A DNA stretch of 64,000 nt from a virus (IMGVR_UViG_3300045988_174698); one strand, 5' to 3'. Positions 8,840 through 45,295 are shown, numbered from the stretch's first letter. Notes: generated by a model from the sequence alone, not told the origin. Made by a program: numbers and translations.

Positions 8840-11462
8840 TTAAATAAGTTTTGCAGCTAATTTTGGGTTAAGTAATAGTTTATTACATTTACCAGGATAG
8901 TGTTTGTTTAGTGTTCTTACTAGGCTAAAGAGTAGATCTTCAGTTAACAATAACTTATCATTATCAACTATCCTAAGAATACGATCTATAATTAGGTCCA
9001 TTTTACACCCAGGTTTACTAAGATATAATAAGCTATAATTTATAAATCTAGTGGTAATTACAGAAGCTATATCGGCACGATACTTACCTTTATCATATAA
9101 TTGATTCTCAAGTATCCTTTTAATATCGTTCCAATCCGTATTAACTAGTTCTTCTGGGGAAGGAAGTTTATCTAATTTATTAGCTATGAATGTAGTAAAT
9201 AATCCCCCAACAATATCATCACTATCAAGAAAACATCCAGAAGCTATTTGCAGAATAAAGGATAAATTCTCAGGTTTAGACCAATCATCAATACTAGAAA
9301 TAGTATTAATAAACATAGTATAATTGCGAGCATTAATTTTAGACTGCCTAGATTTTGAACGGTCCATTAATTCATCACTATAAAGAAGCATAAAGTTAAT
9401 CGCCTGATTATTATACCCTTTTTCCTCGGCATATTTAGCCCAATCATATTTATCAAACTTAATATTAAAGTTTAACATACGGGTTTTTATAGCCTCATCA
9501 ATTTCTGTTACATTAAAATCTCCCCCTTCAGGATTAGCTGTTAAAATAACAGTACTATTAGGAGGTAATTTCCAAGAGAAATATTCTTGTCTTGATATAA
9601 GCTCCATAATAGCAGCCAATACAATTGGAGAGCTACGATTCACATCGTCAAGATTCAAAATTGTAGGTTTACTTAGATCAATACTTTTTATCCATTCTGG
9701 AATTGCATAGCTCATTCTAGTTTCCTCAGATATTTCCCAACCTGCTTTACTATAACTTTCTATAAGTTCTGCAGTTATCCATCTACATTCATCATTTTTA
9801 CATACATAGTGCTCTTTAATTGGCCACCCGCAAATTTCTCCTGGGTCTGAAATTTGACTAAGGTTTTTCTTGATGTAATTAGCACCAATTTCACTAGCTA
9901 TTTGTTCGATTAAACTCGTTTTCAATTTTGTTATCTCTAGAGCTTTTTATCTCTAGATTCTATATCTTCATATTCGATATAGTTCAGCATATCTTTTCAC
10001 CTCTAAAAATAGTAAGGTGGAGCACACTCGTGGGAAAATTATATTCTGTACAACAGGTTCATTTCCTATGCGTTGCACTGTAGCAAATCATTTAAATCTG
10101 CTATTAGCTCAGGATTAGCATCTCAGCCTTCCCTGAATTTGCGCTCTAATAATTTTAAAGATTTCTCTTTAAAACGGCAATCTTTGATTTTATTAAATAT
10201 TTGATATTTTCTATCTAAATAAATTGTTGATTTATAATATAGGTGATATAAGTAGGCAGTTGCCTTTATTCCCGAAAAACTAAATGCAAAAGTAAAATCG
10301 CTATGATTATTAGAAAACAAATGTCTAGGCTCTAAGTAGCTTACCATTTTACTTAAAAATTCTTTTGCACCTAAACAGCTTATTTCTGGTTTATCATATA
10401 ATCCTAATGACCCATCACCATCAAAATATCCTCTAATAAAATGTCTTATTAAATCTTTAGACTTAAAGATATTTTCATTAGGAAATTTTAAAGTCAGTGA
10501 CTTTTTAGGAGTACATCCGTAAGAATTTAATGTTTCTCATAAGTGTTTATTTGTTAGAGCAAATCTACATCTAAAATATTGCTTATTGTTACATATAATA
10601 GATGATATTTTTACTCTATTACCTGTTACTTGAAAAAACTTCTGTAATTTATATAAATGTTCCACATCAGATCCTTTTAAAGAAACTTCAAAATTATAAT
10701 GAGGTTTTCCATTTTTAGGAATTGAAGCAATATATCCATCAGCAAAAATAAAACCCAATCAATAAGCTTTTTCTTCGGTATCTATAATATCAAAAATGTG
10801 TTCATTAAATTTTAGCATATTTTGAGTATTAATAACTGGTATTCCAAGTTTCTTTAATCTAATAGAAAAATTGCTTCGACTAAATTTATATTTATTACTT
10901 ATTTGTGTTAGGCTATAACCATTACTATACATCTGCACTGCCTCTTCAAAGTAAGTATCTAAATTACTCTTTCGTATATTAATGTTATTATTATGAAGAA
11001 TAGTGGAAATAGTATTTCTGGATACATTATATAGTTTAGCTATATCACTACAAGTTTTACCCAAATTATATAGTTTACAAATATTAATTTTTTCAGATAA
11101 TATTAATTTACTACACTCTCTACAAAGAGAATTTCTATTAGCTACACGACTAACTGTAGTAGGATGTACTTTACAAATTTTACTTATATCTTTAATCTTA
11201 TAACCTTGATTATATAAATCAATAATCTTATTTTCTAAATCATTACTAATTTTTTGCATAATATTTAAATTTTAAATAAATTAAATCTATGCAAAAGTAA
11301 TAATATAAAACAATTTAATCAAATATTTTATAATAAATTACCTATACCAGGAAGTGAAGTAAGTTGAACACTTATTGGAAATTCTCCTCTTTCTTGGAGA
11401 GATCTATTATTGTTTATAATATATTTTAAAATAGGTTTTATTTCTCCTAATGTTAGTTCCAT
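8840..11462 (-). CDS. MoxR-like AAA+ ATPase, split by a group I intron: exon 1 at 11462..11340, exon 2 at 9922..8840 (~401 aa spliced)
   Basis: Exon 1 ends ...SLPGIG and exon 2 starts KTSLIEQIASEIG..., which reconstitutes the Walker A motif GIGKTSL. The ILTANPEGG sensor region is MoxR-like. The unspliced read-through hits a stop after 3 codons. Confidence 0.7.
9923..11339 (-). mobile_element. Group I intron (family R, copy 1) with LAGLIDADG homing-endonuclease ORF, inserted in the Walker A codons of the MoxR ATPase
   Basis: The 5' exon ends in T (GGT|) and the intron ends in G (...ACAAAATTG|). The 3' core (10130..9935) carries an S-like element GAAGATATAGAATC and blocks shared with four other loci. 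Confidence 0.65.
10123..11259 (-). CDS. Intron-encoded homing endonuclease: N-terminal repeated HTH modules plus double LAGLIDADG (GFIFADGYI, GYFDGDGSL); 3 TGA codons
   Basis: ORFs 10759..11259, 10537..10758 and 10123..10347 are in frame and joined by TGA (the TCA at 10759-10761 and 10537-10539 on the plus strand). Confidence 0.7.
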
Positions 11463-11467
11463 ATTTA

Positions 11468-12619
11468 TTACGGTATTAATACAGTTATTCCTGGAAACTT
11501 CTGAGATTTATTCCCATCAGATGTAATAATCCAGATTAAGTTTTTACAAGTTGAAAATGTAAATTTAGATAAGTAACCATCAGTAAATATCACACAAGAA
11601 CTAAATTCTTTGTGTTCTTTATAGAAGTCTAGAGCTGGGCAAACATCAGTACCTCCACGACCAATAAATTCAAATTTACTTTTTTTATCATATTTACATA
11701 TCTTAGTGATATTAGTATCACACTCTATAATTGTTATATCTACACCTGTTTTATATATATGATTAACTTCAGATATAAAATTAGAAAAGTCATTCATATT
11801 TATAGAACCTGAAGTATCAATAACAACACATATGTTTGGTTTTCTTTTTAAACGAGTTCCTCTAGCATCAGGTAATCTTTTTGAAGGTCTCATCCTAGTT
11901 AATTGTAGATCACTACTAATAGAATCTCCAACTACTCGTCTAAAATAGTTTCTCCAGTTAAAAACTGGAGGATTATTTCTTATTTTTTCAAGTATTTCTT
12001 TTAATTCTCCAGGTATGTGGCCTACTTGTTTATTAACAAGAGCTTCTGTTTCTTTTAACTTAGACTTTACTTGATTTTCATATAATTTACGTTCGGCTTC
12101 CGATATATCTTTAGGCCACATATCATGATTATCTATACTTTTAAAGTCGGCTAATCCTTCAGTACCAGGGATACATTTTTCAGGGTGTTCTTTAACAAAC
12201 TTTTGTATTTCATTATAATAATACCACGCCCCTCTATTGGGCTCTAGGTTCTTTCCAATTAACTTAGAAAGATTCTGTAAAGTAACACACCCATCAGGCA
12301 ATCCTGTAACTATTTGGTTCACAACTACATCTGTTGCTATATTCATATTATCATGATTATCTGCTTTGAAATCATCAGTAAGATGAAATAAACATATGTG
12401 TACTAACTCATGGGTGAGCACAGCAATACATTCAGTATCAGTAAGGTTATTCCAAAATGTTTCATTTACATATAATGTAAAATTGATACCATTAGGACCT
12501 ACAGCAGCTGTTTTTACAGGATGATTATCACTAACAATCTCCTTGCGTAGATTTAGCAAGAAAAGTCCATAAAAAGGTTGCTGAATAAGAAGCTCTTTAC
12601 ATGCTTTAATTAATTGCAT
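11468..12619 (-). CDS. VWA-domain protein with N-terminal HExxH putative metallopeptidase domain (MoxR partner)
   Basis: HELVHICLFH is an HExxH motif. The C-terminal segment VVIDTSGSINM is a MIDAS DxSGS motif. The gene sits directly upstream of the MoxR ATPase. Confidence 0.65.
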   Translation of the reverse strand: MQLIKACKELLIQQPFYGLFLLNLRKEIVSDNHPVKTAAVGPNGINFTLYVNETFWNNLTDTECIAVLTHELVHICLFHLTDDFKADNHDNMNIATDVVVNQIVTGLPDGCVTLQNLSKLIGKNLEPNRGAWYYYNEIQKFVKEHPEKCIPGTEGLADFKSIDNHDMWPKDISEAERKLYENQVKSKLKETEALVNKQVGHIPGELKEILEKIRNNPPVFNWRNYFRRVVGDSISSDLQLTRMRPSKRLPDARGTRLKRKPNICVVIDTSGSINMNDFSNFISEVNHIYKTGVDITIIECDTNITKICKYDKKSKFEFIGRGGTDVCPALDFYKEHKEFSSCVIFTDGYLSKFTFSTCKNLIWIITSDGNKSQKFPGITVLIP

Positions 12620-12790
12620 ATTCTATTTCATCTTTATTAAGCCAACGTTTAAATGTTAATCTAACAACGCCTTTTATAGGTGCATCTAACATTTTATAGT
12701 CAGCATTACATTCATAAAAAATCCTAGGATTGTTGGTATCATAAGTCCAACAAATCCCAGGATATTCGTTAGTTAAACAATATTTTCTCA

Positions 12791-13403: not shown

Positions 13404-13859
13404 TTAATAATATTCGTATTCATCATAGTTTTCATTATAATAGTCTTCATCTCCAGTATCATCTCCTATAGGATTATTAAACCCATATTTAACGGAAGTT
13501 GCTTTGAAAAGAGGTAATCCATAGTAGGCATAATTATCATTAGACCAATTTTCCAAACCTTCTTCAAGGATCCAGTTCCACATCTGCACCACCTCAAACA
13601 TTAGACTCGAAGAAATGCCTCTTTTATCTAAGGCTTTCTCAAAACCAAAAGCAACATCTTCTTTAAGCTGCTTCAGTACATTCTCTCTGGTAAAAGGAAT
13701 AGTCTTTTTATCCCATTCTTCCTTAGTTACGTTATCTTGAAGAGTTAGACCACAAAAAGGAAACATTTCAAAGGGAATGAATTCTGCAAGTCTATATAAA
13801 TCTCTTCCATCTATCGTAGGACTTTTATATGCTACTTTAATCTGTTCAAGTGTTTTCAT
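13404..13859 (-). CDS. Hypothetical protein with acidic C-terminus
   Basis: ORF track only. Confidence 0.35.
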   Translation of the reverse strand: MKTLEQIKVAYKSPTIDGRDLYRLAEFIPFEMFPFCGLTLQDNVTKEEWDKKTIPFTRENVLKQLKEDVAFGFEKALDKRGISSSLMFEVVQMWNWILEEGLENWSNDNYAYYGLPLFKATSVKYGFNNPIGDDTGDEDYYNENYDEYEYY

Positions 13860-16328: not shown

Positions 16329-18662
16329 TAAAATAATTTTAATTGTTTATGCTTAAACATACATACGATTTTTTGTGCTGCAGCTATATAAAAAGAATAA
16401 TTAATATTAGATGGTAATTCATCAGATTTATTAATAGTATTCAAAATTGTTACGCCAGAGTCAGTTAATAGTTTAATATAGTTATATCGTCTACCATTAG
16501 AATCTATTTTACATTTATATAGCCATGGACCATCAGTAGATATATAATATCGGTTAATACGTTGAATTAACTGACCATCATATTCTACAGAATAATCTTT
16601 ACTAACTTTTTGATAAGTTATAAACTTATTAATATCCTTACAAGCATAAATAGTATCTGCAACAGGAATTCCATCTGCTAAACATTTATTAATAGCTTCG
16701 GGAATAATAACTGCATCCATACCTTTGCCAAGTTTTACCTTGTCGATAAACATACCTTTTGTCTTTAAAAGACTTGGATCTTTTGTTTCAGAATAACCTT
16801 CCTTAATTGCAAGATAGTCATTAATAGCAAACTGATACATTGCTTCAAATCTATCCTCTTCAAGAGTAAGTTTAGTTAAGATTTCCCAATTCTTGCAAAT
16901 TTCTTGTACATTGGTATATTTGTTTCGTTTTAATAGTACAAATAATCCATCAGTATTAGCTTGAATTATTCTACAACCTGCTTGAACTAATTTCTCCGCT
17001 AACATTAATAACATCAATTGTCCATTAATTCTAATTTGCATAACAGCATATGGAGAATAACAAAAATTATGTTCATTTTGTAGATTACCAGACAAACCGT
17101 TTAAAGCAAGTTTTAGAGTTTCATTCTTAACTTTATTTCCATTATGTTTAGCTTCTAATCGTTCATCTCGAATTTGAGAGTAAACTTCAAGGAATTCTTT
17201 ACCAAGATGTTTTGGATAAAATCCATATTGTATAATAATGCTAGGATATAGTGCATATCCATTTTAATTTTCGACTATATCTTAATTTTTATATCTAATT
17301 TGTTCTGAATTTAATTCAATGTAGTGTCATTTAAAGCCTTTATATGAAGCTTTTGTACCTTGACAACAACAATAAATGGATATAACCAAATTAAATTTAT
17401 AAAAATTCGCGGCGTTTCGAATAAAACCTTATAAAGTTTTATCCTACTCTCTTTCGAGATAGTCTGTGAACCTTGATCCTATAAGGATCCTTGGCTGCGG
17501 ATTATAATACTTATTAAGTTTTTACTTTCTCATAAGCGTTATCTTATGTGCTACACTATGTATTACTACTAGCTGCAGTATTAATAAGTTAAATTAAGTT
17601 CCCGCAATTAACCGCGTTTTACTTGCGCCACTATATTAACGCAACATCTATATCAATAAGCATTTCATCTTTTGTAGGTATAATTTCCTCAGGTTTATTA
17701 ACACTATGAATACCTCCAACTCCAACAGTATATTCTAATTCATCAAATATAAAATGTTTCTCATATCCTTTACGTCCAGGAGAAACTGTTTGCTTTTTCA
17801 TATCAGCTAATACACTTTTAAGTATAGGTGATTCAAACTCAATAAAAGGTAAAATAACCTCATTTAATGGAATTAAATCGCAAGGTGACCTCAAATCTTT
17901 AATTTGATTTCAGGTTTGTCCTGTTTTTTCAAGATACTTTTGAGTAATAATTTTCATTCCAATATTAACTCCATCTTTATTAAGTACCTTTACTCCATAC
18001 TCATCTTCAATAGCTATACGTAAATCAATATCCTTTTTACATCTATTTAATAATTCCTCAGTAGAATCAACATCATTAATATTATATTCTATCATTTTAG
18101 GAATTTCAGATACAGGAAGATAATCTTGGAAATCGCCTTCATATTCTTGAACATTTCGAAACTGCATAGTTACTTGCATCTCCTTTAACCCTACTCTCAA
18201 CTTTTGAGAATAAAGCATAGTTAACAAGTCTAATGTTTCAAAATAAATTTTATATTTCCACTTTGTTCAAGAACTAAAATTAGTATCAGTAGATTGAATT
18301 ATTAAATTACTAAGTTTAAATAAAGATGCGCATATCTCTGAATACGACATCTTTAACATTACTTTATGAAAATCAATAATATAATTAATAATAGGATTAT
18401 CATAATGAATATTATTGTATCCACAAAATATTTTATCTGTTTTAAACTGTAAGTTTGTAGTATAGTTTCTTTCTCAAATACCAATTTGAGATTGATTTCT
18501 AACAGTTCAAAATAAATCTACTAACTCTTGTAAATTATTCTTACGTTCAGATATTTCAAAAAATAAGCGTTCTCCTGTTTCTGTATTTTTTACAACACAG
18601 TGAAACACATTAGGAAATATTTCAATATCATAAACGTATACAGTTTTATTTCTAATTAACAT
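16328..18662 (-). CDS. Family B DNA polymerase (with 3'-5' exonuclease), split by a group I intron; exon 1 ~18662..17643, exon 2 ~17261..16328
   Basis: Exo I is VYVYDIEIF and Exo II is GYNNIHYDNPII. Motif A is split: the 5' exon ends ...DIDVA(L) and the 3' exon resumes (GYA)LYPSIII. Motif B-like KLALNGLSGN and motif C-like IIQANTDGLFV follow. The exons are in different frames and separated by a structured non-coding RNA. Confidence 0.65.
17262..17642 (-). mobile_element. ORF-less group I intron (Tetrahymena-like core) in DNA polymerase motif A; boundaries are approximate
   Basis: The minus-strand RNA contains AATTGCGGGAA (P), AATCCGCAGCCAAGGATCC (Q), GGTTCACAGACTATC (R) and TTAAGATATAGTCG (S), in that order. 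Confidence 0.7.
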
Positions 18663-24474: not shown

Positions 24475-27000
24475 TCAGCCGCAGGACATACAGCTTACAC
24501 ATCCTGAAGTAGCAACCAATGGTTCCCCACATTCTGGACATACGTTTTTATTATCATGATTGGCATTTATTGAAGGTTTTGTATCTGGAACACTAATCTG
24601 CTCTTTTTGAGGAATTTTTACATTATCTTTTATAGCTTCTGTAATTACTCTTGATATAATATCTGGGCATGACAAACCATCAATATTAATTTTTCTAGCC
24701 TTACATGTACTACAAGCAGGACAATTAATTCCTCTTATCTGATCAATTATCTCATCGACTTTAACACCACTTCTAAGATTAAGAGAAATTAATCTTGTTA
24801 CAGCATTCATGTTAGCTTGACAGATACCACCTTTAGATGTATGTGTGAACACTTCTACAAGATTACCCTTATTATCCTTATTGCAAGTTATATATAATGT
24901 TCCACATGCACATTTTTTACAAAAAGTTGCACCATGTGTTGTACCAAGTGTTTTGCGTGAAACTGGTGCAATGGAATCAAATTTGAAAGATTGTTTTTCT
25001 TCTTCAACTTTAATAGATTCCCCCATAATAGCTGGTCTACTATTTTCCCTAAATATCGTTAACCCTTTTAAACCAGCTTTCCATCCAGCTAAATATAATT
25101 TTTCTACATATTCTTGTGATGTATCTTTCTTAAGATTAATTGTAGAACTTATTGCTGTATCAATATACTTTTGTAATGCTGCTTGAAGCTTTATACGATC
25201 ATATGAATCAATATCATATGCTGTTACAAGAATATCATCATCTATAGAAGAATTAGGAACAGAATCAAGATATTCTTTTACAATTTTAGCATAAACATCA
25301 TATACCTTTTCTTCTTTATTAAGAGATACTGTTTTTCTCTGAAATTTCTTCATAAACAGGGGTTCCAAACCGCCCGATACTCCAAGCATAGTTGAAATTG
25401 ACCCAGTTGGTGCTATCGAAAGTAGTGAACAGTTTCTAAGACCAAATTTTTTCATTTTTTCAAGTTCATCGCTTGAAAAGGCTTCTTTCATTATACTAGA
25501 TTCAAATACCTTGTCTGAATAGCCAGGAAATGTTCCAAGTTCTTTAGCAAGATCATATGAGGTAAATACAGAATTTCTGAAAATAAGTCTCATAATATTT
25601 TCTGCAAGTTTTATCGACTCTAGGCTTCCATATTTAATATTCAATTTTATAAACATATCATGAAGTCCCATAATTCCTATGCCAAGGTTTCGGTATTTAG
25701 CAATTTGTTCTTGTTGTTCCTTAAGAGGGTGGTTATGAAGATTTTCATCTATAATCCTATCCATTTCCCTAACAATAATCTTTATATCTGAAACTAGTTC
25801 AGAATAATTAACTGTTGCAAATTTTGTAAAAGGATCTTTTACATATTCAGATAGATTTATTGAGGATAAGTTACAGGACATATTTTTTGGCAAAGGTTGT
25901 TCCTATATATTACCTATTTAGCTTTTTATCTAGATATTCTGGAAGTTTCCTTCATACTCTTTATTGCCATTAGAGATACGTCTGTCAATTCAGACCAGTT
26001 TAGCATATATTTTCACTATAAAGTGTTGGGCACTCTTGGTGGAATTATATTTATTCATCCACTATGCGTTACAATGTTTCATAGCCTATTCGTAATCTAT
26101 GAAATTATCTCGGTATTATCATGCAATAATTTGTTTAGACTTCACCGATTTTACCCAATTTTTTACATGAGGCAAACAATACAACTAACTGATAACCAGC
26201 CATTTACTACCACATGGATTACTAGTATCTATTTGATACTCAGTAATATACTCCATCAAATTATAATTTCTGAATCTATTCATAAACATGACTCCAGGCT
26301 CTGCATGTTCATATGCATTTTTCATCATAAGTTTATAAATTTCAATTGGAGTTATATCATAATCAGGATATCCCTTAAACTTAGATTTAATATGAAGGGT
26401 TATAACTTCTCCTGTCTCATAAAACTTATCTACGGCATTCATAAAGTTATCATCAACTTCCACAGAAAGGTTTGCATTATTGATCTTTCCAAGATTGCTT
26501 TTAATAGTTATGAAATCTTTTATTTGTGGATGATCTGCTGAAAGAGACATCATTAATGCGCCTTTACGTGATCCACCCTGAGAAACAGAAGCAGTTACAG
26601 TATTAAATATCTCCATAAATGGAACAATACCATCTGTTTCATATCCTGAAGAAAGTTTTGATCCTTTTGGACGAATATCAGATAAAGATAATCCTTGACC
26701 TCCCTGAGCTTTGAACGTTAATCCTATATTTTTTGCCGTTTGAAGAATATCATCAAGATTATCTGCAATTTTACCAGACGAGTAGCAATTTGAGTACGAA
26801 GCCTGTCTGTCTGTTTGTCTGTTTGATAGAGTTCTTCCTCCAAATAAGAACTTTTTAGCAACAATTAACTTTCTTAGTTCTTCATTTCCACCACTAACTC
26901 TATCAAACCACTCGTCTAAAGACTCATTATTATATCTATACTTTTTATTTCAAATATCAATTCCTAATTGATCATTATTAAGCCATTCTTCAACAGTCAT
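24475..27000 (-). CDS. Ribonucleotide reductase catalytic subunit (class II-like, C-terminal Cys-rich zinc ribbon), split by a group I intron: exon 1 at 27000..26199, exon 2 at 25912..24475
   Basis: The N-terminus reads ...VPFMEIFNTVTASVSQGGSRKGA. Exon 1 ends ...SNPCG and exon 2 starts EQPLPKNMSCNLSSINL, reconstituting NPCGE...CNLxSINL. PTGSISTMLGVSGGLEP and the C-terminal CPECG...C..C are also RNR features. Confidence 0.7.
25913..26198 (-). mobile_element. ORF-less group I intron (family R, copy 4) at the NPCG|E active-site codons of RNR
   Basis: The 5' exon ends TGT GGT| (T at -1) and the intron ends ...ATATAG| (G). It contains the family blocks ...AGCATATATTTTCAC..., CACTATGCGTTACAATG and CTCGGTATTATCATGC. 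Confidence 0.65.
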
Positions 27001-32395: not shown

Positions 32396-34860
32396 TCATG
32401 AAAGATAATCTTCATAATTTATTTCATCAGATTTAGGTAAAGGATAGAACATACCAATACTACCTTTGAAAGCAGACATGATAATTCTATTAGAAATACC
32501 ATATCTATTTTTAAGAATAATAATAGATCTACAAATATCTTGTAAACCATATCCTTCGTTATCATCCATTATTTTATATCCTCTATAACTTTTTAGTTGG
32601 GTTTTAAATGGACTAAATAATGCAATACAAATATCAGCAGCTTGTAATGGTTCACCTGACTGTTGAATTTCATCCGCAGTAGGCTCTTCCATACCAGCTT
32701 TTCTCCTATCCATAGTTGTACTATTTCTATTTTCTTGCATTATAATATCAAAACTAGTCTGACATAGTTCTCTAAATCTGACACAATAAGTTGATATAAG
32801 ATCCATTTCTTCTTTTTTAGTTCTCCCTTTTTGAGGATTTACTAAAAGTAAATGATCAATAACAACATTAACTATTTGATTAGGATTATTTGGGGTATAT
32901 ATAGTTCTTTTTCCATCAGGACTTTTTTGAAAGGTTCCTAAACTTTTGTGGAGTTCCATCATTTCTGCATAAAAAGAATCTGCAGAGAGCTGTTTATCAT
33001 ATATAATAAACTTATGACTTATAGATTCTAATCACTCACGAGCTTCAATTACATACTTATGTATATCATCTGGTAACTTATTAGTAAATGACATTAATTG
33101 CATATATGTAACTTCAATACCATAAGTTTCATATAAATATAAGCTTAATAATTTCGCCAACAATGTATTAGCACTTAGTTCAAGAGAAAAATAAACTATA
33201 ATTATATCTTTATCTGGATAATCTTTTAAAATACGATATATATCTGTATATATAACAAAAGAGCTTTTCAATTTGTTATCTTACTTGCTTTTTATCAAGT
33301 AATTCTTATAGTTTCCTATAAGTTCAGCATATATTTTCATCTCTTTGAGATGTCGGATACTCTTGGGAAAATTATATTCTGTATAACAGGTTCATTTCCT
33401 ATGCGTTACAATATAAAATAACTGTTAAATTACTTTATTATCTCGGGGTTAACATGCTTATATACAAAATTTGGATAATTATTCTGTACATATAGTTTAG
33501 CCTTCTCCGATATTACCCGATCATTATCTCTAAAATCACTTTTAGAGACGGCAAAATTATGATTTTTAAAACACAAATATCTATAATATTTCCTATTTAA
33601 ATAAATTGTAGAATTTTCATAAATTCACTGTAAAAATTTAATACTATTATTTATATTACTTTTTATATCAAATATTAGATCACTTGTTTTATTTGCAACA
33701 TATCATGTTCATGAAGTATTTGAATATACTTCTATATTTTGTAAAATATTTTTAGTTCCAACAATACAACATCTTGGTTTAAAAATATTTTTACTACCTC
33801 CATAAGATAAACATCCATCACCATCAAAATATCCTCTAATAAAATGTCTTATTAAATCTTTAGATTTAAAAATATTTTCATCAGGAAATTTTAAGACATA
33901 ACTTTTATTTGGAACACATCCTTTTTCTATTAGAGCATCTTTAATATGTTTACAAGAAATAGCAAATCTACATCGTTGCAATTTATTATCAGTTCTTGGT
34001 AATCTGAAAATATTTAAGGCACTATATAATTTTTCTAGATGTTCAATATCATCAATATGTAAATCACATGAGATATGGTAAGAATTTGTAGAAACATTAC
34101 CATCAGCATATAAAAATCCCAATCAATATGCTTTTGTTTCTGTGTCTATTACATCAAAAAATGATTCATTTACTGTTTTACGATTTAGGTTGAAATTATG
34201 TTTTTTTTAGAAACTTTGAAATAACACAACCTTGAGTATTATATAATTTACCTATTTCTTTCAGAGACATACCGTTATTAAAACAATCAATCATATTTTT
34301 TAAATCATTTAATTTAAACGTATATGATATCCTATTACTTTTATGTGATAAATAAATTCCGCATCGTTTAAATAAATTACCTAATGCAGCAGATGTACAA
34401 TTGCACAATTTAGAAACAGATTTAAGTGATATTTCAGGATTTTCATGAAATTTACATAAGGCTTCTTTAACTTTTACATCATTTACTTTATGTTTTCTAA
34501 CATTCTTAAAATAAAAATCTAAAAGAATTAAATCTACAGCTTGTTTTGAAATATTTAATTTGTTGGATATTTCAAATGAATTTAAATTTTGTTTTCTTAG
34601 TTCTATTATTTTGTTTATCATAGTAAAAATTATTTTAATTTTTACTACAAAAATAACGCAATTTATTTATATTTACAAATATCTGCGTTGGAAATTATTA
34701 ATGTTTTACCAACACTACTTTTGCTGAATATTAACTTATATACACCCTTTTTAAATCCTCCAGTATAAAAATCCAATTTTAAAAGTCCTGTTTTAAGACC
34801 TATATTTTTACCTTCTCGCCCGTCTTCTATTTTAGAATATAATTCACCTACCAAACTCAT
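32396..34860 (-). CDS. DnaB-family replicative helicase (RecA-like domain), split by a group I intron: exon 1 ~34860..34690, exon 2 at 33267..32396
   Basis: Exon 1 reads GLKTGLLKLDFYTGGFKKG...SKSSVGKTLII (Walker A). Exon 2 reads ...IIIVYFSLELSANTLLAKL... and ...GEPLQAADICIALF (DnaB IEQDADVVLFL). Confidence 0.65.
33268..34690 (-). mobile_element. Group I intron (family R, copy 2) with LAGLIDADG homing-endonuclease ORF, in the DnaB helicase; the 3' end is exact and the 5' end is approximate
   Basis: The intron ends ...ACAAATTG| and the 3' exon begins AAAAGCTC. The core blocks GTTCAGCATATATTTTCATC and CATTTCCTATGCGTTACA are shared with copy 1. Confidence 0.6.
33435..34621 (-). CDS. Intron-encoded homing endonuclease, paralog of 10123..11259 (HTH repeats plus LAGLIDADG x2: GFLYADGNV, GYFDGDGCL)
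   Basis: ORFs 34196..34621 and 33709..34122 extend through TGA to 33435. An ~80-nt stretch is nearly identical to 10400-10480. Confidence 0.65.
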
Positions 34861-35513: not shown

Positions 35514-36737
35514 TTAAAATCTATGCTCTATATCTATTATGCCTTTTTTGGGTCTAGTAGAAATTTCACCACCTTTTAATATAACATCTAACTGATCCTC
35601 AGTAATAGTTATATAAGATTGATTTTTATTAGCATTATTATACCAAGTTTCTTCTATAGAACCTGCAATCACTAATGTAAAAAACTCTGCAACTTTATTT
35701 TCTTCAGCTCTGATCACACGGCCAATACGTTGTAAATCAGTCACTTGAGAAGAATTACAAGTTAAAGCTATACCTACAGATAATCCTCTAACATCGACAC
35801 CAGCATCTAAAGCTTTAGGAGAAACAATATTAGCAATATCTAATTGATTAAATGTTTCAAGAATTATCCTATTCTCCTTTTTCTTTTTCTGACTATGCAA
35901 TACTAAAGCTCTGGATTTAAATAGCTCTGCATCTTTTACAGTAGCAGTAAACAATATACATTTCTTGTCTCGTCTAAAGTCTAGAATTTTATTTGCAACT
36001 TCAAACTTTTTAGGATGAGTCATGACAAAAGTTTTTCTTAGCTTTAAGTATTTCATAAACTGAGCTAAGTAACCTCTTGTAGCATTATCACTTTTCCCAT
36101 ATTTTTGGGCCCAAATTTTCACTTTTTTGGGTGATTTGACTAGCTCCATCACCAGTTTAAAATCGTGATTAAAATAAGCAAATAATTGTTGGAATTTAGC
36201 ATTATACTCTCAATATTTCTCCATATCAACATGTAGAAGAACTTTATATTTTCTGTATGAAGATACTCAGTTATTTTCTAATGCTTCTTGTAATGTAATT
36301 GTATCACAAACGGACATAAACTGTTCAAGATATTTTTCACTTCCGTCTAGACGAGTTCAGGTTGCAGTTAATCCTAAAAGATATTTATATTCTACACAGT
36401 TATAGATATTGATAAACGTTGGACTTGCAGATAAATGACATTCATCTACTACTAATAGGTCAACTTGATATTGCTGTTTAATGATAGTATTAAATATTTC
36501 TACTTTACAGATAGAAAAGAGTTGGTTTTTAGCCAACTCTCTATTTCACTGTTCTTTCAAAACATCTGTTGGAACAGCAACTAATACTACGATGTTAGGA
36601 TTATGCTTATATAACGATTTAATAACCATTATACTACCATTTGTTTTACCTGTGCCAGTAGCCCATTCAAGTACACCTCTACCACCACTATCAATTCAGC
36701 GTCTTATACCTAATTTCTGACGTTCATCTCGGTTCAT
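35514..36737 (-). CDS. SF2 DEAH-box DNA helicase (UvsW/Rad25-like)
   Basis: Walker A is EWATGTGKT, the DEAH box is LLVVDECH, and motif VI is TDLQRIGRVIR. The N-terminal half was reconstructed through TGA codons. Confidence 0.6.
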
Positions 36738-36773
36738 TAAAGATACAAAAAATTGATTAGATATAAAAATAAG

Positions 36774-39101: not shown

Positions 39102-40753
39102 TTAGTCTATGTCCCCCTTATAGGCATTCATAATAGATTTTTCCTTTCTAAGCCAAGAGCCCTCAGTTTCTGCTATATCTAGAACAGTACGGCTAATAGA
39201 TTCTTCTTCTCAATTTTGTTATCGTATAGCTTTTTATCTATACTTCTTATACTTCATTTTGTATAAGCTCAGCATATATTTTCACCTTCAGCATTATCTG
39301 TTAAGGGTAAATCACTCGTGGGTTTATTTTATTCTAATCTGTTATTAATATTTTATAATTGTATATAGCGTTGTATACCTGTTTTGGAAGTATATTTTTA
39401 TATTTGTTAGCATATTCCTTTAAACAAGTTTCTTTCTCTTTCTTATATGCTCTAAATGCTTCTTCAATTGTAGAAAAAGTTCCTATATGTTTTTTCTTAT
39501 TCATATAATTAATTTGAGCAATTATTTTATTGTTTTTGATTCTGACTCCTATTGGAGTATTACCTCTACATTGAAATCTTCAAGTAATAGCAGTATTAAT
39601 TTCCTTTGGGATAAAACAACAATAATTTGGAGAATAAATTTTATTCCCCTTTACCAAGAAATCTTTATCTATAACAAATGATTCGTTATAACAATTATTA
39701 TAATATCAATCCGCAAAATTCTGAAAATTTAATCATTCTTTACAAACAGTAACTCCATTTCCTCCATAGTTATTATATTCAGAAACTTTTGGACAATAAC
39801 ATCTTCCAATCATTTCTTTCCAAATTTTATAACATCGAGTTTGTTTACCGTTTTTGTCCCTAGAACTATATTGACCTACTCCAAAATAACCTGTATTGTA
39901 TACAGACGGATAATAAGGATCTTTAACAGAGCCCTTTTTTAGATTACCTAGTTCAGCAGTAATAATAGTACCTGTTTGTAAAAATTTTATTATTACATTA
40001 TATGAATCAATATATTCTAGAATGATAAAATCTCCAGAACTATTTGAAGTCATAATTTTATTTTCATAAATTTGTTTGTTATTTGTCATATATCATAATA
40101 TTTTAATTAAACATAGTACAAATATACAAATTCTTTTTCAGACTCACAAACAAATTAGGTTCAAAACCTATGCGTTACACTGACTTAATATATTACTATT
40201 AAGTTTAGCACGGTATTAGCATCTCAGCCTTCACCGTTTTTGATTTATTCTATTCTACTTATTTCTAAGCAGACAGGCAGAATTCTACCTGCTCGTTCAC
40301 TAACATTCCTGTCTCTTTATCATGCCCGTTCAACCAGTTGAAAGTAGCCCAATCACCCTCATTAGCTGCCTGATCAACAATTTCATTAATCATTTGAGTA
40401 GTTTCAATTTCAAGATCTACGGTAATCTTAAAAGGATCTACCATATCTTCTACTTTCTTATCAAACTGCTCAATAGTAGGATAAATATACTCTGCATCGT
40501 TTTCATTTAAATATTTACGAATCCAGGAATGATGTAAGTATTCTTCATCTGCTCTTTGTTTGTAATACTCTTCAAGAATAACAAATCCTCTAACACCAAA
40601 GTAATTTGCAAAATTCATATACGCATTATGATTTTGCAATTCATGCTTAAGCTGACGAAGAAGTAGTTTTTGAATTTCAGCACTTAAAGTGCATTCACGC
40701 CTACTAACATCCTTTTTTTCTACAGGATCATTTGCCTCATTTTTAATTATCAT
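39102..40753 (-). CDS. Ferritin-like protein, split by a group I intron: exon 1 at 40753..40287, exon 2 at 39210..39102
   Basis: Exon 1 aligns to bacterial ferritin FtnA (E..EExH..., DWATFNWL vs DYPTFNFL) and ends ...VNEQ(V). Exon 2 EEESISRTVLDIAETEG... continues the FtnA C-terminus (EQHEEEKLFKSIIDKL). Confidence 0.65.
39211..40286 (-). mobile_element. Group I intron (family R, copy 3) carrying an AP2-domain endonuclease ORF between the 5' and 3' core halves
   Basis: The 5' exon ends CAGGT| and the intron ends ...ACAAAATTG|. The 5' half (40250..40130) has ...AGCATCTCAGCC... and ...CCTATGCGTTACACTG... blocks; the 3' half (39330..39250) has ...CACTCGTGGG...AGCATATATTTTCACC. Confidence 0.65.
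39342..40089 (-). CDS. Intron-encoded putative homing endonuclease with W..M..RC...YGG.G motif and C-terminal AP2 DNA-binding domain
   Basis: YKIWKEMIGRCYCPKVSEYNNYGGNGVTVCKEW, then GVRIKNNKIIAQINYMNKKKHIGTFSTIEEAFRAYKKE (AP2-like). Confidence 0.5.
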
Positions 40754-40790
40754 AAATTAGGTAATTTAAAGTATAAAACATTTCTGCTAT

Positions 40791-41153: not shown

Positions 41154-41155
41154 AG

Positions 41156-43199: not shown

Positions 43200-43808
43200 T
43201 TAGTTATCTATTATTTCAATATATCTCTGTTTAGGAGTAGTAACGTAAGGATTTTGATCTATAATAATAACTTCTATAACAGTATGTTTTCTAGTAAACC
43301 ATCGTGGTAGAAACCATTTTCGTGGTTTAATAGGTTCTTTATGAGAACTTAGAGTTATATACTTTTCATTATTATACTCATTACTTAAAGCTATTGTTCC
43401 TGGATAGGAAAGGTGTAGACAACTTCTGTTTCATTTATCTACAATACAAGTATCTAACACAAACCCAGGTTCTCTAAATATTGTATCTCTAATAACAATA
43501 GTATCTTTCTTAGAAAAATGTTCTAATTGATATTGTAACGCTTTAATTTTATTATCCTTAACTTTGTTCTCATTAGCTACTTTTTTCATTTTAAGCATTA
43601 AAGAATCGCTAAAGTATTCTAATTGCTCAATTGAAAGCTTAAATACACGATTACTTTCTTTTAATCATGAATTTTCCGCAGCATATGCTTTTTCATTATT
43701 TATAGAATTATCTAACGCAATATTCAGATTTCTAATTTTATTGGTCATAAAAATTATAGCCAATACAAGTAAAGTATAACTTAATATTCTTAAAATTATT
43801 TTTTTCAT
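43200..43808 (-). CDS. Hypothetical membrane-anchored protein (N-terminal TM helix), 2 TGA codons
   Basis: Manual translation reads MKKIILRILSYTLLVLAIIFMTNK... to ...QRYIEIIDN*. Confidence 0.35.
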
Positions 43809-44204
43809 TATATTAATTCTCTGTTAAAAGTTGAAACTACAAAACTTCGGAATAGAATTAAATCTTCTAGAGCATTATCTAACGATGCTACTTGTTTTTT
43901 AACTCTTAAATATTTTTCAGTAATAATTTGTATAATATTTTTAATATCTCTAATAGAACAAGGATCGTATTCAAACATACATAATCTTCTATTTAAAACA
44001 CCAATAGGCTCATTTGTTAAAATTATAGGAATTCTCTTGTTAGATTGAATTTTTATAACAAAAGGAATAGATCCAAGGTCTACTAATAATTTTAGATATC
44101 TTATATCTACATTATTTGGAAATATAAATCCTGCCTGTTTAAGATTTCTAGTAATTAACATAGTATTAAAAAATAAGGCATTAGAAAACTAATGCCTTAA
44201 TATT

Positions 44205-44778
44205 TTATTGTTTATTAACAGTGTATCCATGATGTTCTAAAACTAGTTTACATAAGTTTAAGTACTCTTCTACAGTTAAATCACTTTTAGAATAATTAGC
44301 TGCAGGAGTTGTAATACCTAAATTTGATAAATCATTCGACCCGCCTTTAGAAACTGGTATTATATGATCAAAACAATAATCATCTTTTTCTAAATCAATA
44401 GGAGTGCCTGTTAAATAGCACTTTGTTTTTGTGCCAAATTTATTAATAATATCTAAAGTCTTAATTTTATTTAAACTCTTCATTCCTCTATTTTGAAAAT
44501 GTTCAATATATCTCCTTAAACGTTTACGTCATGTTCTATTAGAGATTCTTCTACATCCATGAGAGATTCTAGCACAAAAAGTACATAGTCTAGATTTAAT
44601 TCTCCCCTTAAGTGTATTACGTCATAATGAAGTAGATTTTCGTTGTTTACTATTAGTTATATCATTACAATAATATCCAACAATACTTTTGCTACATCCA
44701 AGTATCTTAGCAATTTCATTATAACTTTTATTATCACTTCTTAAAATAAGAATTTGTTCCTTTAACTTACTCATAATC
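44205..44778 (-). CDS. HNH endonuclease with N-terminal HTH (sigma-70 region-4-like) extension
   Basis: The C-terminal HNH motif is CYLTG...DHIIPVSKGGSNDLSNLG. Upstream in frame, through TGA codons, is SYNEIAKILGCSKSIVGYY. It starts 11 nt after the tRNA 3' end. Confidence 0.55.
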
Positions 44779-44788
44779 AACTTATTAG

Positions 44789-45226
44789 CACGAGCTCTCC
44801 GATTCGAACAGAGACCGTAGGGTTTGGAGCCCTACAATACGGTTTTGCTTACCACTATAGTTTTCACTACCAGTTTTACTGTTTGTAGTCTGGACTATAT
44901 CAGCTTGATATACAAGTGTGGCATTTAGTCTCTACACATTTATAGAGTAAAGTAGGATACATAGAGAAGTGTACGGCTTTAATTTTCGACCTACTAAGCA
45001 CTCCGCCTATTTTACACGGCATAAACAGCCTATGTTCTCTACTGTATTTTACTCTAATTTAGCTCGGTATTATCAGCTATCCATATTTCAGGACCTTAGA
45101 CTTTCTTAGAAAGCTGATTCGCATGATTTTTATCATCTTATTTCGCTTTTACCGAATTTGCCACAATTTTCACGCCAAGCGTGCTCCAATTCGAAGACCG
45201 CTGTGCTACCATTACACTAAGCTCGC
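44789..45226 (-). tRNA. Intron-containing tRNA gene; its 5' half (45226..45193) and 3' half (44848..44789) splice to a ~93-nt class-II-like tRNA with anticodon UCA; the alternative fold is tRNA-Trp(CCA)
   Basis: The acceptor pairs as GCGAGCT/AGCTCGT+G. The D-arm is GTGT-AATGGTA-GCAC and the T-arm is CTCTG-TTCGAAT-CGGAG. The 5' exon ends ...GCGGTCTT| (U) and the intron ends ...GTAAG| (G), giving the anticodon loop CTT|CAAA. The variable arm is GTAGGG-CTCCAAA-CCCTAC. Confidence 0.55.
44849..45192 (-). mobile_element. ORF-less group I intron (family R, copy 5) inserted in the anticodon loop of the tRNA gene
   Basis: Shared blocks are AGCTCGGTATTATCAGC and CCTATGTTCTCTACTG. The S-like element is GCTGATATAGTCCAGAC. 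The 3' end GTAAGCAAAACCG... resembles GATAACAAAATTG of copies 1-3. Confidence 0.5.
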
Positions 45227-45295
45227 ATTTATTATCTTTAGTTATACAGCAAAGATAACAAAAATCTGTGAACAATCAAAAATTTAATTAACAAA

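What the first reader, a model, noticed from the sequence alone, without database searches (positions are those of the whole stretch)
9935..45290. One group I intron family present in five copies in five unrelated genes (MoxR ATPase, RNR, DnaB, ferritin, tRNA)
Shared blocks recur at 9965-10130, 25980-26160, 33310-33420, 39255-39330 plus 40130-40250, and 44890-45080:
- GUUCAGCAUAU(A/C)UUUUCA(C/U)C
- CAC(U/C)CGUGGG
- CCUAUG(C/U)GUU(A/G)CA
- (A/U)UUAGCAUCUCAGCC / CGGUAUUAUCA

The 3' ends are near-identical, GAUAAAAAGCU..AGAUAACAAAAUUG|.

The copies differ in ORF content (none, LAGLIDADG, or AP2-type) and in where the ORF sits relative to the core.

This looks like an actively spreading intron family within one genome. 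It always lands in essential or conserved sequence: P-loop, active site, anticodon loop.
Basis: seen in the sequence. Interest (0 to 1): 0.6.

Follow-up and report, generated by a model that had tools for sequence, protein, structure and literature searches.

The report
Six self-splicing introns in phage genes
A TGA-recoded phage genome segment carries six group I self-splicing introns, four of them from one intron family that is common in phages; this is an ordinary feature of such phages, but one intron splits an unusual tRNA that reads the recoded stop codon.

Summary
The repeated blocks are real at four of the five sites.

Introns I1 (AAA ATPase Walker A), I2 (class II RNR NPCG|E), I3 (DnaB-like Walker A) and I4 (ferritin-like) belong to one group I family. 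A covariance model built only from unrelated viral contigs scores them at 132-195 bits, with I4 split in two by its ORF. On 116 homologues, 94.8% of pair cells are paired and 44 of 48 pairs show compensatory changes, including the P3/P7 pseudoknot.

The tRNA intron (I5) is a group I intron but not of this family. A sixth, unlisted group I intron splits DNA polymerase motif A.

The four cores are only 66-71% identical, no closer to each other than to introns in unrelated phages. So recent spread within this genome is not supported. Intron content does differ between 92-99% identical relatives, which shows ongoing mobility between genomes.

Dense group I introns in recoded gut phages are already published.

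The most novel item is the split tRNA. It has a UCA anticodon that reads TGA (Trp here), is missed by default tRNA finders, and has an extra arm that copies a tRNA-Trp CCA anticodon loop.

The parts
9923..11339 (-). Intron I1 (1417 nt) in an AAA+/MoxR-like ATPase, inserted between the Gly and Lys codons of Walker A (PGIG|KTS). The R1-family core is 9923-10146.
   Evidence: Exon reading frames. The spliced protein gives a continuous AAA_5 match over residues 38-190. CM R1 scores 194.5 bits, E=2e-48. The 5' exon ends in U and the intron ends in G. P1 is AGGU|AAUUUA / UAAAUUGUUU with U.G at the splice site.
10066..11259 (-). LAGLIDADG homing endonuclease ORF of I1, with N-terminal HTH domains. 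It has 3 in-frame TGA codons, and its last ~26 codons overlap P3-P7, with the stop being the UAG of GCAUAG.
   Evidence: Pfam LAGLIDADG_3 29.6 bits (cut-off 22.5) and HTH_7. TGA counts. Coordinates.
25903..26208 (-). Intron I2 (306 nt, no ORF) in a class II (B12-type) ribonucleotide reductase, between NPCG and EQPL.
   Evidence: The spliced protein aligns without a gap to T. maritima RNR 1xje across 'tsnpcgeqpl'. Pfam Ribonuc_red_lgC covers 78-547. R1 scores 132.4 bits. RF00028 scores 23.3 bits, E=5.6e-4, over the full model length.
33269..34707 (-). Intron I3 (1439 nt) in a DnaB-like helicase, at Walker A SSVG|KSS. This is the same codon junction as I1. The core is 33269-33520.
   Evidence: DnaB_C matches 21-315 on the spliced protein. 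R1 scores 168.7 bits. The best P1 (GUUGG/CCAAC) leaves U.U at the splice site (by eye; one search finds no good U.G option).
33430..34621 (-). LAGLIDADG ORF of I3, split by a frameshift at an A-run near 34196-34206. The N-terminal HTH part is 34621-34196 and the LAGLIDADG part is 34206-33430. It has 4 TGA codons.
   Evidence: LAGLIDADG_3 27.1 bits. It is 38% identical to the I1 ORF. An 87-nt patch is 93% identical at DNA level: 10405-10491 against 33808-33894.
39211..40286 (-). Intron I4 (1076 nt) in a ferritin-like gene at EQV|EEES. The core is in two halves, 40286-40150 and 39342-39211, with the ORF in the P7.1a loop.
   Evidence: Pfam Ferritin covers 29-163 on the spliced protein. The spliced protein is colinear with an uninterrupted homologue in L049 (68% identity, one HSP). 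R1 scores 48.5 + 67.9 bits. P1 is GCAGGU|AG / CUGCCUGU with U.G.
39334..40053 (-). ORF of I4 (239 aa). It belongs to a family annotated as phage HNH endonucleases. It has 3 TGA codons and 1 TGG codon.
   Evidence: PHROG 953, 374 and 2081, 'HNH endonuclease', E=3e-57 to 2e-49. There is no Pfam hit at E<=0.01, so 'AP2-type' is not confirmed.
44848..45193 (-). Intron I5 (346 nt, no ORF) in the anticodon loop of a tRNA, between U34 and C35. It is a group I intron with the canonical R/S elements (P7 GACUA/UAGUC) and is not a member of the I1-I4 family.
   Evidence: ARAGORN run with introns allowed. RF00028 scores 18.5 bits, E=0.019, over the full model length. Intronless alleles read ...GGTCTT|CAAAACCGT.... 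Compensatory changes occur in P3 (GUGGCA/UGCCAC, AUGGCA/UGCCAU, AUAGCA/UGCUAU) and in P6 among alleles. R1 gives no hit.
44788..45226 (-). Split tRNA gene, with exons 45226-45194 and 44847-44788. The spliced form is 93 nt with anticodon UCA and G73. A 6-bp extra arm has the loop CUCCAAA.
   Evidence: ARAGORN on the in-silico-spliced sequence gives a tca anticodon. It is missed by default ARAGORN and by Rfam. There are 24 distinct alleles in 46 loci; the extra-arm stems covary and TCCA is invariant.
44205..44774 (-). Free-standing HNH endonuclease gene directly downstream of the split tRNA. It is the probable mobility partner of the ORF-less I5.
   Evidence: Pfam HNH_4 and PHROG 6050. It co-occurs at 95% identity only in loci with the same I5 allele. 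The cassette 44212-45268 is 96% identical to L125, while the flanks are 70-77% identical.
17254..17638 (-). It is a group I intron in family A DNA polymerase motif A (DIDVA|SLYPS).
   Evidence: RF00028 scores 37.8 bits, E=3e-8, over the full model length. The spliced translation reads LIDIDVASLYPSIIIQY. P1 is UUGCGU|UA / UGGCGCAA with U.G. PHROG DNA polymerase matches exon 1.

Best explanation
**What it is.** The window is part of a large (~130-175 kb), AT-rich, TGA=Trp recoded phage genome. Its replication and nucleotide-metabolism module carries six group I self-splicing introns.

**The introns.**
- I1-I4 belong to one subgroup-IA-type family: P1, an optional P2, the P3/P7 pseudoknot, P4-P6, P7.1 with an optional P7.1a, P8, P9, and a terminal hairpin with the conserved loop AUAAAAAG. 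This family is widespread in phages.
- I5 (tRNA) and I6 (DNA polymerase) are two further, unrelated group I introns.

**How it works (inferred from established group I chemistry).**
1. Each intron folds.
2. Its internal guide sequence pairs with the end of the 5' exon.
3. It excises itself by guanosine-initiated transesterification.
4. This restores a Walker A loop (twice), the RNR NPCGE site, a ferritin helix, the anticodon loop and polymerase motif A.

**Mobility (inferred).** It is driven by endonucleases: LAGLIDADG in I1 and I3, HNH-family in I4, and a free-standing HNH gene beside I5. These cut intronless alleles of co-infecting relatives.

**Origin of the four family members.** They are old, separately maintained lineages, not recent copies of each other.

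**Link to recoding.** The endonuclease ORFs write Trp almost only as TGA. Their translation therefore needs the UGA-reading tRNA, which is itself produced only after I5 splices out.

**Shown versus inferred.**
- Shown: exon continuity, terminal U and G, family membership by an independent model, covariation, and polymorphism among relatives.
- Inferred: catalysis, endonuclease activity, and the timing link to TGA decoding.
For: **Exon continuity across all junctions.**
- Pfam domains are continuous across the splice sites.
- The spliced RNR aligns to 1xje.
- The spliced ferritin is colinear with an uninterrupted homologue in L049.
- Intronless tRNA alleles match the predicted exon junction.
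- The spliced polymerase restores motif A.

**Splice-site rules.** All six 5' exons end in U and all six introns end in G.

**Family membership and structure.**
- CM R1 was built from external sequences only. It hits I1-I4 at E=2e-48 to 8e-11 and finds nothing else in the window at a comparable score.
- RNAalifold on sequence-only MAFFT alignments recovers P3, P4, P6, P7, P7.1, P8, P9 and the terminal hairpin.
- On 116 homologues, 94.8% of cells are paired, against 63% in shuffles and 31-45% with slid partners. 44 of 48 pairs have changes on both sides.
- RF00028 aligns I2, I5 and I6 over the full model length, below the gathering score.

**Divergence.** Divergence among I1-I4 equals their divergence from external relatives.

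**Polymorphism among relatives.**
- L136, L137 and L164 (92-99% nt identity) carry two extra R1-family introns where the window is uninterrupted.
- The RNR gene of L107 carries three other group I introns and lacks I2.
- The identity of L164 to the window (99.3%) ends exactly at the I5 5' splice site.

**Recoding.**
- TGA aligns with W at 2 of 3 alignable sites in an XPB-like helicase.
- Trp codons in the endonuclease ORFs are 12 TGA to 1 TGG. In the host exons they are 8 TGA to 18 TGG.
- This matches the TGA-rich intron endonuclease in an early gene reported for TGA-recoded Agate phages (bioRxiv 10.1101/2021.08.26.457843).
Against: - No intron reaches the Rfam gathering score of 50 bits: they score 18.5-37.8, and large scans find nothing.
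- I3 has no U.G pair at its splice site and its endonuclease ORF is frameshifted, so it may splice poorly or be decaying.
- P1 of I2 and of I5 is short or ambiguous.
- No RNA data are available, so splicing is not shown.
- The covariation counts come from a model-fitted alignment, which leans towards the model. The sequence-only alignments do give the same helices.
- Subgroup assignment (IA, P7.1/P7.1a) rests on architecture recalled from the Michel-Westhof scheme. It was not tested with subtype models.
Confidence: 0.88

Rival explanations
1. One intron family has recently multiplied inside this genome, giving five copies that arose by transposition from one another.
For: - I1 and I3 occupy the same G|K codon junction of two different P-loop NTPases. 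Their target sites are 13 of 21 nt identical around GGT|AAAA.
- Both carry related LAGLIDADG ORFs with an 87-nt patch that is 93% identical. This points to some exchange between the two within the lineage.
Against: - The cores are only 66-71% identical, and external introns are as close or closer.
- The two LAGLIDADG proteins are 38% identical overall.
- I5 is not a family member.
- The family occurs in more than 118 unrelated viral contigs, often several copies per contig.
Confidence: 0.08
2. The shared blocks are not introns. They are another repeated element, such as a regulatory repeat, a terminator cassette or a MITE-like insertion, or AT-rich chance matches. On this reading the interrupted genes are pseudogenes or naturally split genes.
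For: - Rfam gives no match at gathering score.
- GenBank records annotate homologous stretches as 'terminator', 'none', or as part of an 'endonuclease'.
Against: - The insertions fall precisely in catalytic motifs, and the frames are restored after removal.
- The U...G termini, the exon-complementary guide sequences, the P3/P7 pseudoknot and the strong covariation all point to group I introns.
- The block count is far above chance.
Confidence: 0.02
3. Some copies are decaying relics. In particular I3 (U.U at the splice site, frameshifted endonuclease) no longer splices efficiently or no longer moves, and the ORF-less I2 and I6 are immobile passengers.
For: - The frameshift at the A-run 34196-34206.
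- No U.G option for the P1 of I3.
- I2 and I6 have no ORF.
Against: - The I3 core scores 168.7 bits and is conserved in L107 and L163 at 89-94% nt identity.
- The helicase is probably essential, so splicing must still occur.
- The A-run could be a sequencing error or a slippage site.
Confidence: 0.25

Closest known systems
Group I introns of cultured phages (T4 td/nrdB/sunY, Bacillus SPO1-type DNA polymerase introns, Staphylococcus Twort); recalled from memory
   Same: - Self-splicing group I ribozymes with extra helices between P7 and P3' (subgroup IA).
- Inserted in conserved motifs of nucleotide-metabolism and replication genes (RNR, DNA polymerase).
- Carry or lack homing endonuclease ORFs that overlap the core.
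- Several introns per genome.
   Different: - A different sequence family: P7 is GCAUA/UAUGC, there is one P7.1 hairpin with an optional P7.1a, and the terminal hairpin has the loop AUAAAAAG.
- The hosts here include an AAA ATPase, a DnaB-like helicase and a ferritin-like gene.
- The genome is TGA-recoded.
High-density group I introns of crAss-like (Delta/Zeta) phages and Jug jumbo phages (PMC7886860; PMC12880540)
   Same: - Up to 14 introns per genome in Zeta crAss-like phages and about 18.5 per genome in Jug phages.
- They split core genes (MCP, PolB, primase, terL, nrdD).
- Jug introns average ~206 nt, like the ~205-220 nt core here.
- Homologues of I1 occur in the GenBank crAss-like records cr6_1, cr7_1 and cr131_1.
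   Different: - This phage is not shown to be crAss-like or Jug.
- The host genes differ.
- Those papers found introns by protein domains or subtype models and do not describe this family's structure.
TGA-recoded 'Agate' phages (Borges et al., bioRxiv 10.1101/2021.08.26.457843)
   Same: - Genome size of about 154 kb and TGA=Trp.
- The replication module is poor in TGA.
- A group I intron endonuclease in an early gene preferentially uses TGA for Trp.
- A suppressor tRNA was detectable in only 35% of TGA-recoded genomes.
   Different: - Membership of the Agate clade could not be tested here, because no terminase phylogeny was made.
- That paper does not report an intron-split suppressor tRNA or its extra arm.
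Group I intron in cyanobacterial and plastid tRNA-Leu(UAA); recalled from memory
   Same: Inserted in the anticodon loop directly after U34. It is ORF-less and compact.
   Different: - The tRNA here has a UCA anticodon, Trp-like identity elements and an extra arm.
- At least six unrelated intron sequences occupy the same site in different phages.
- A free-standing HNH gene is adjacent.
'Enigmatic' tRNA introns of Lak megaphages (PMC6784885)
   Same: These are phage tRNA genes with introns that bacterial-mode tRNA finders miss. Intron presence and absence vary among variants.
   Different: - The Lak introns were not typed as group I and are not in the suppressor tRNA.
- Lak phages recode TAG, not TGA.

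Membership tests
Group I intron | Removing the insert restores an uninterrupted, conserved gene product | tested here: met
   Met for all six introns.
Group I intron | The 5' exon ends in U and the intron ends in G (omega-G) | tested here: met
   Met for all six introns.
Group I intron | P1: an internal guide sequence pairs with the end of the 5' exon, with a U.G wobble at the splice site | tested here: inconclusive
   It is clear for I1, I4 and I6 (8-10 bp with U.G). For I2 and I5 it is short or ambiguous. For I3 the best helix has U.U at the splice site (and by eye).
Group I intron | Core topology of P3-P4-P5-P6-P7-P3'-P8-P7' with the P3/P7 pseudoknot, supported by covariation | tested here: met
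   For the I1-I4 family: (44 of 48 pairs with compensatory changes; 94.8% of cells paired against 63% in shuffles). For I5: P3 and P6 covary among alleles. For I6: only the Rfam alignment.
Group I intron | Match to Rfam RF00028 at or above the gathering score (50 bits) | tested here: not met
   I2 scores 23.3, I5 18.5 and I6 37.8 bits, all aligned over the full model length. Nothing is found in large scans. RF00028 is, from general knowledge, a broad model that is insensitive to divergent subgroups.
Group I intron | Guanosine-dependent self-splicing | not testable with these tools
   This needs in vitro transcription and splicing, or RNA-seq.
   CM R1 hits I1-I4 but not I5 at E<=10. I5 shares only one 11-mer, and its alignment z-scores are 0.9-2.7.
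Subgroup IA (Michel-Westhof) | Extra helices (P7.1 with P7.1a or P7.2) between the 5' strand of P7 and the 3' strand of P3 | tested here: met
   A P7.1 hairpin of 5 covarying bp is present (helix 6; 99.5% paired). An optional inner hairpin holds the ORF of I4. Subtype models were not available.
LAGLIDADG homing endonuclease (ORFs of I1 and I3) | Pfam LAGLIDADG domain above the curated cut-off | tested here: met
   LAGLIDADG_3 scores 29.6 and 27.1 bits against a cut-off of 22.5. The I3 ORF is frameshifted.
HNH/AP2-type homing endonuclease (ORF of I4) | A recognisable HNH or AP2 domain | tested here: inconclusive
   PHROGs annotated 'HNH endonuclease' match at E=3e-57. There is no Pfam domain at E<=0.01.
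UGA-decoding tRNA-Trp-type suppressor | A cloverleaf with anticodon UCA and Trp-type identity elements (G73; A1-U72 or G1.U72) | tested here: met
   ARAGORN on the spliced sequence gives a tca anticodon. The alleles are listed. The identity rules themselves are recalled from memory.
UGA-decoding tRNA-Trp-type suppressor | Charged with Trp and active at UGA | not testable with these tools
   There is only indirect support: TGA aligns with W in an XPB-like helicase and in the LAGLIDADG motif AYWLGF.

The most novel reading that the evidence does not exclude
**The tRNA.** The tRNA split by I5 is the phage's own UGA=Trp decoder, and it has two unusual layers.

**Layer 1: a group I intron in the anticodon.**
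- The anticodon (U34|C35) is interrupted, so the code switch becomes available only after self-splicing.
- The gene is invisible to standard tRNA finders. That would help explain why most TGA-recoded phages appear to lack a suppressor tRNA.

**Layer 2: an extra arm that copies an anticodon arm.**
- Its 'variable arm' is a stem-loop copy of a tRNA-Trp(CCA) anticodon arm, with the loop CUCCAAA.
- The TCCA in the loop is conserved across 24 alleles while the stems covary.
- It could serve as a decoy identity element that lets the host TrpRS charge a tRNA whose real anticodon is UCA.

**The site is a homing hot spot.** At least six unrelated introns, as well as intronless alleles, occupy the same site in related phages.
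Probability: 0.3. Interest if true: 0.85.

Novelty: new member of a known kind. Interest (0 to 1): 0.5.

Why it matters
**The intron family itself.**
- It gives a validated structural model for a very common but largely unannotated phage group I intron family that Rfam misses. Homologous stretches in GenBank records are annotated as 'none', 'terminator' or part of an 'endonuclease'.
- It shows that annotation of such phages needs both code 4 and intron-aware gene calling. Six essential genes in this window are otherwise called as fragments.

**Mobility.** The comparisons with relatives give clean natural examples of intron gain, loss and replacement at catalytic-site codons between 92-99% identical genomes.

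**The tRNA.**
- If the novel reading holds, it makes an open question testable: how TGA-recoded phages that infect standard-code hosts obtain a charged UGA-reading tRNA.
- It would also help explain why suppressor tRNAs go undetected in most such genomes.
- It would add a new layer, ribozyme-gated tRNA maturation, to the proposed use of recoding as a timer for late genes.

Tried and rejected
- **Rfam scans.** At gathering score, and at E<=10 over 39 kb, no group I match was found. Only small-window scans recover RF00028, below threshold.
- **Mixed-subtype alignment.** A MAFFT alignment of both external subtypes (A2) put the P3 strands one column out of register. The model was therefore built from one subtype only (A3).
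- **Gap-free identity from pairwise global alignment.** All pairs came out near 0.8, so it did not discriminate. Identity over model columns was used instead.
- **Contiguous-helix search for P1.** It proposed helices for I5 and I2 that conflict with P4 or use only wobble pairs. These were not adopted.
- **ORF coverage under code 4 versus code 11.** This was a test for association between the tRNA and TGA recoding across loci. It did not discriminate.
- **Scan of 185,579 bacterial and archaeal genomes for the intronless tRNA.** Four pattern hits were found, of which only one is a real tRNA, on a 3-kb contig of a Treponema MAG. This gives no host clue.
- **Pfam on the I4 ORF.** No hit.
- **tRNA-Sec reading of the split tRNA (ARAGORN's label).** Rejected:
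  - the arms are 7/5 with a 4-bp D stem, whereas a Sec tRNA has 8/5 and a 6-bp D stem (from memory);
  - TGA is frequent at Trp positions.
- **Inteins.** Rejected for these six inserts:
  - the inserts are not in frame with the exons;
  - they carry stops in all frames or a separately initiated ORF.
- **Megablast of the RNR region against GenBank phages.** No match, so the genome is not a deposited phage.

Full report
**1. Context**

The window has 26-34% G+C. From about 6.2 kb onward nearly all genes lie on the minus strand. Seven tRNAs and a tmRNA lie at 55.6-62.3 kb.

Under the standard code many genes are broken at TGA. Several results show that TGA is read as Trp:
- Reading TGA as sense gives long ORFs, including a 1467-aa ORF with 14 TGA codons.
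- TGA falls at the conserved W of the LAGLIDADG motif AYWLGF in two ORFs.
- In an XPB-like helicase, two of the three alignable TGA codons align with W in archaeal XPB, and the third aligns with F.

Related IMG/VR contigs are 105-175 kb long. The genome matches no GenBank phage at DNA level. Its RNR is at most 43% identical to phage RNRs.

The size, the recoding and the TGA-poor replication genes resemble the 'Agate' TGA-recoded phages of Borges et al.. Clade membership was not tested.

**2. The observation**

The RNAs are on the - strand, so the blocks are the antisense of the RNA.

The 20-mer block occurs four times with at most 3 mismatches, against 0.03 expected by chance. The repeat finder and direct scans place all family-specific blocks at four sites.

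At the fifth site, the tRNA, only the 11-mer CGGTATTATCA is shared. Alignment z-scores of that intron against the other four are 0.9-2.7, compared with 5-16 among the four.

**3. Intron boundaries**

Boundaries follow from reading frames and conserved motifs. Coordinates are given in minus-strand (RNA) order.

| Intron | Window coordinates | Host and junction | Evidence |
|---|---|---|---|
| I1 | 11339..9923 | AAA ATPase, PGIG\|KTS | |
| I2 | 26208..25903 | class II RNR, NPCG\|EQPL | |
| I3 | 34707..33269 | DnaB-like helicase, SSVG\|KSS | |
| I4 | 40286..39211 | ferritin-like, EQV\|EEES | |
| I5 | 45193..44848 | tRNA, U34\|C35 | |
| I6 | 17638..17254 | family A DNA polymerase, DIDVA\|SLYPS | |

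Evidence that the junctions are correct:
- After in-silico splicing, Pfam domains run through the junctions.
- The spliced RNR aligns without a gap to the T. maritima enzyme.
- The spliced ferritin is colinear with an uninterrupted homologue in L049.
- Intronless tRNA alleles have exactly the predicted junction.
- All six 5' exons end in U and all six introns end in G.

P1, the pairing of the 5' exon end with the internal guide sequence:
- I1, I4 and I6 have 8-10 bp helices with the U.G wobble at the splice site.
- I2 and I5 are short or ambiguous.
- I3 has U.U at the splice site.

**4. Family and structure**

A gapped pattern that links the two strands of P7 found at least 118 IMG/VR contigs. 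Many of them carry two or three copies.

RNAalifold on sequence-only MAFFT alignments of external copies predicted the following helices:
- P3, P4, P6, P7 and a P7.1 hairpin;
- P8 and P9;
- a terminal hairpin with the conserved loop AUAAAAAG.

P3 and P7 cross each other, which is the hallmark pseudoknot of group I introns.

A covariance model (R1) was built from 17 external sequences only. Its hits in the window:

| Intron | Score (bits) |
|---|---|
| I1 | 194.5 |
| I3 | 168.7 |
| I2 | 132.4 |
| I4 | 48.5 + 67.9, in two halves |

R1 gave no hit to I5 or I6. Its only other match is a 24-nt hairpin at 13697-13720 (E=0.76).

Covariation on 116 homologues:
- 94.8% of pair cells are standard pairs, against 63% in shuffles and 31-45% with slid partners.
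- 44 of 48 pairs show changes on both sides.

Rfam RF00028 aligns I2, I5 and I6 over its full length, at 23.3, 18.5 and 37.8 bits. All three are below the gathering score of 50.

The P7.1 helix between P7 and P3' places the family in subgroup IA by architecture. That criterion is recalled from memory, and subtype models were not available.

I5 and I6 have the canonical P7 (GACUA/UAGUC) and the canonical R and S elements. P3 and P6 of I5 show compensatory changes among alleles.

**5. ORFs**

- **I1 and I3.** These carry LAGLIDADG ORFs with N-terminal HTH domains. They lie between P1/P2 and P3 and read into the core. The I1 stop codon is the UAG inside P7. The I3 ORF is frameshifted at an A-run.
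- **I4.** Its ORF matches PHROGs annotated as HNH endonucleases. It sits in the loop of P7.1a.
- **I2, I5 and I6.** These have no ORF.
- **Beside I5.** A free-standing HNH gene lies directly downstream of the split tRNA.
- **Codon use.** Trp codons are 12 TGA to 1 TGG in the endonuclease ORFs and 8 TGA to 18 TGG in the host exons. This agrees with the observation in Agate phages.

**6. Recent spread within the genome, or not**

Over 209 model columns I1-I4 are 66-71% identical to each other. Each has external relatives that are as close or closer, for example I2 against L038 at 78%. The two LAGLIDADG proteins are 38% identical. This does not fit recent copying within the genome.

One sign of local exchange remains: an 87-nt patch is 93% identical between the two LAGLIDADG genes. 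In addition, I1 and I3 sit at the same G|K codon junction of Walker A, with 13 of 21 target positions shared.

**7. Mobility between genomes**

- **L136, L137 and L164.** These are 92-99% identical to the window. They carry two additional R1-family introns where the window is uninterrupted. One is at window position 48163/48164. The other is near 48961, in the catalytic GICRG motif of an amidotransferase-like gene.
- **L107.** It is about 89-95% identical to the window. It keeps I3 but lacks I2. Its RNR gene instead carries three other group I introns, one of them 5 nt upstream of the I2 site.
- **L049.** Its ferritin gene has no intron.
- **The tRNA cassette.** The segment 44212-45268 (tRNA, I5 and the HNH gene) is 96% identical to L125, whose flanks are only 70-77% identical to the window. 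L164 is 99.3% identical to the window up to exactly position 45194, the 5' splice site. Beyond that point it carries a different intron.

**8. The split tRNA**

Default ARAGORN and Rfam miss this gene. With introns allowed, ARAGORN finds it but miscalls it as Ala(cgc).

The spliced sequence folds as a 93-nt cloverleaf with these features:
- anticodon loop CUUCAAA, giving anticodon UCA;
- discriminator G73;
- an extra arm, GUAGGG-CUCCAAA-CCCUAC.

The loop of the extra arm equals the anticodon loop of tRNA-Trp(CCA). That sequence is recalled from memory.

A 17-mer search found 46 loci with 24 distinct alleles. In all of them the extra-arm stems covary and TCCA is kept.

The same site is occupied differently in different loci:
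- nine loci are intronless;
- the others carry at least six unrelated intron sequences, 192-707 nt long.

Among 185,579 bacterial and archaeal genomes only one real copy was found, on a 3-kb MAG contig.

Four literature searches found no description of such a tRNA. Published work does note two related points:
- suppressor tRNAs are undetectable in most recoded phage genomes;
- Lak phages have 'enigmatic' tRNA introns.

**9. Comparison with what is known**

High densities of group I introns in gut phages are published:
- in recoded crAss-like phages (PMC7886860);
- in Jug phages, which show no alternative genetic code (PMC12880540).

Homologues of I1 occur unannotated in GenBank crAss-like, Clostridioides, Staphylococcus, Bacillus and Flavobacterium phages.

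The core finding is therefore a correct recognition of group I introns, but it is a new member of a known kind. The claim of five copies of one family actively spreading within the genome needs correction to four family members plus two other introns. Mobility is visible between genomes, not within this one.

The tRNA is the part that a specialist would find surprising. Its function is inferred, not shown.

Noticed in passing
It splits family A DNA polymerase motif A (DIDVA|SLYPS). RF00028 scores 37.8 bits. It has the canonical Q, R and S elements and P7.1/P7.2-like hairpins.
   Followed up: yes
window 44788-45226 (-); alleles in L119-L181: The split tRNA has anticodon UCA, G73 and an extra arm whose 7-nt loop CUCCAAA copies a tRNA-Trp(CCA) anticodon loop. 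In 24 alleles the arm stems covary and TCCA is invariant. Default tRNA finders miss the gene.
   Followed up: partly
whole window, e.g. 1758-6161 (+), 35514-36773 (-): TGA is a sense codon (Trp). A 1467-aa ORF has 14 TGA codons. TGA aligns with W of XPB at 2 of 3 alignable sites. The endonuclease ORFs use TGA for 12 of 13 Trp codons, while the ATPase and ferritin exons use none.
   Followed up: partly
window 48163/48164 and ~48961; L136 3318-3583 and 4380-4743: Relatives that are 92-99% identical (L136, L137, L164, L123) carry two more R1-family introns at sites that are uninterrupted in the window. One is in the GICRG catalytic motif of an amidotransferase-like gene. One of these introns has the canonical P7 (GACUA/UAGUC), which links the family to classical phage introns.
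   Followed up: partly
L107 7586-8436, 8939-10163, 10511-11623: A ~89-95% identical relative has three other group I introns in its RNR gene, with LAGLIDADG, HNH and LAGLIDADG ORFs. One lies 5 nt upstream of the I2 site. I2 itself is absent.
   Followed up: partly
window 44212-45268 versus L125 and L164: The tRNA + intron + HNH cassette is 96% identical to a phage (L125) whose flanks are only 70-77% identical to the window. In L164, 99.3% identity to the window stops exactly at the 5' splice site (45194), and a different intron follows. This is a signature of homing with co-conversion.
   Followed up: yes
window 10405-10491 versus 33808-33894: An 87-nt patch around the second LAGLIDADG motif is 93% identical between the I1 and I3 endonuclease genes, which are only 38% identical as proteins. 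This suggests gene conversion between the two copies.
   Followed up: no
window 34196-34206 (-): The I3 endonuclease ORF changes frame at a run of A residues. This may be a pseudogene, a sequencing error or a slippage site.
   Followed up: no
window 61842-62263 (-) and 55642-60957 (-): A phage-encoded tmRNA (52.3 bits, above the gathering score) lies next to a cluster of seven tRNAs (Arg, Cys, Ser, Asn, Ala, Thr, Gln). No tRNA-Trp(CCA) is present in the window.
   Followed up: no
window 13697-13720 (-): An isolated hairpin with the family's terminal-loop motif GAUAAAAAG matches positions 188-211 of the model (9.7 bits, E=0.76). It may be chance or a remnant.
   Followed up: no
GenBank CP067347.1 and CP069348.1 (hits H1, H4): The RNR genes of two Clostridioides phages match in two pieces about 680 nt apart, which suggests an unannotated insertion there as well. 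Clostridioides phages also hold homologues of the I1 core.
   Followed up: no
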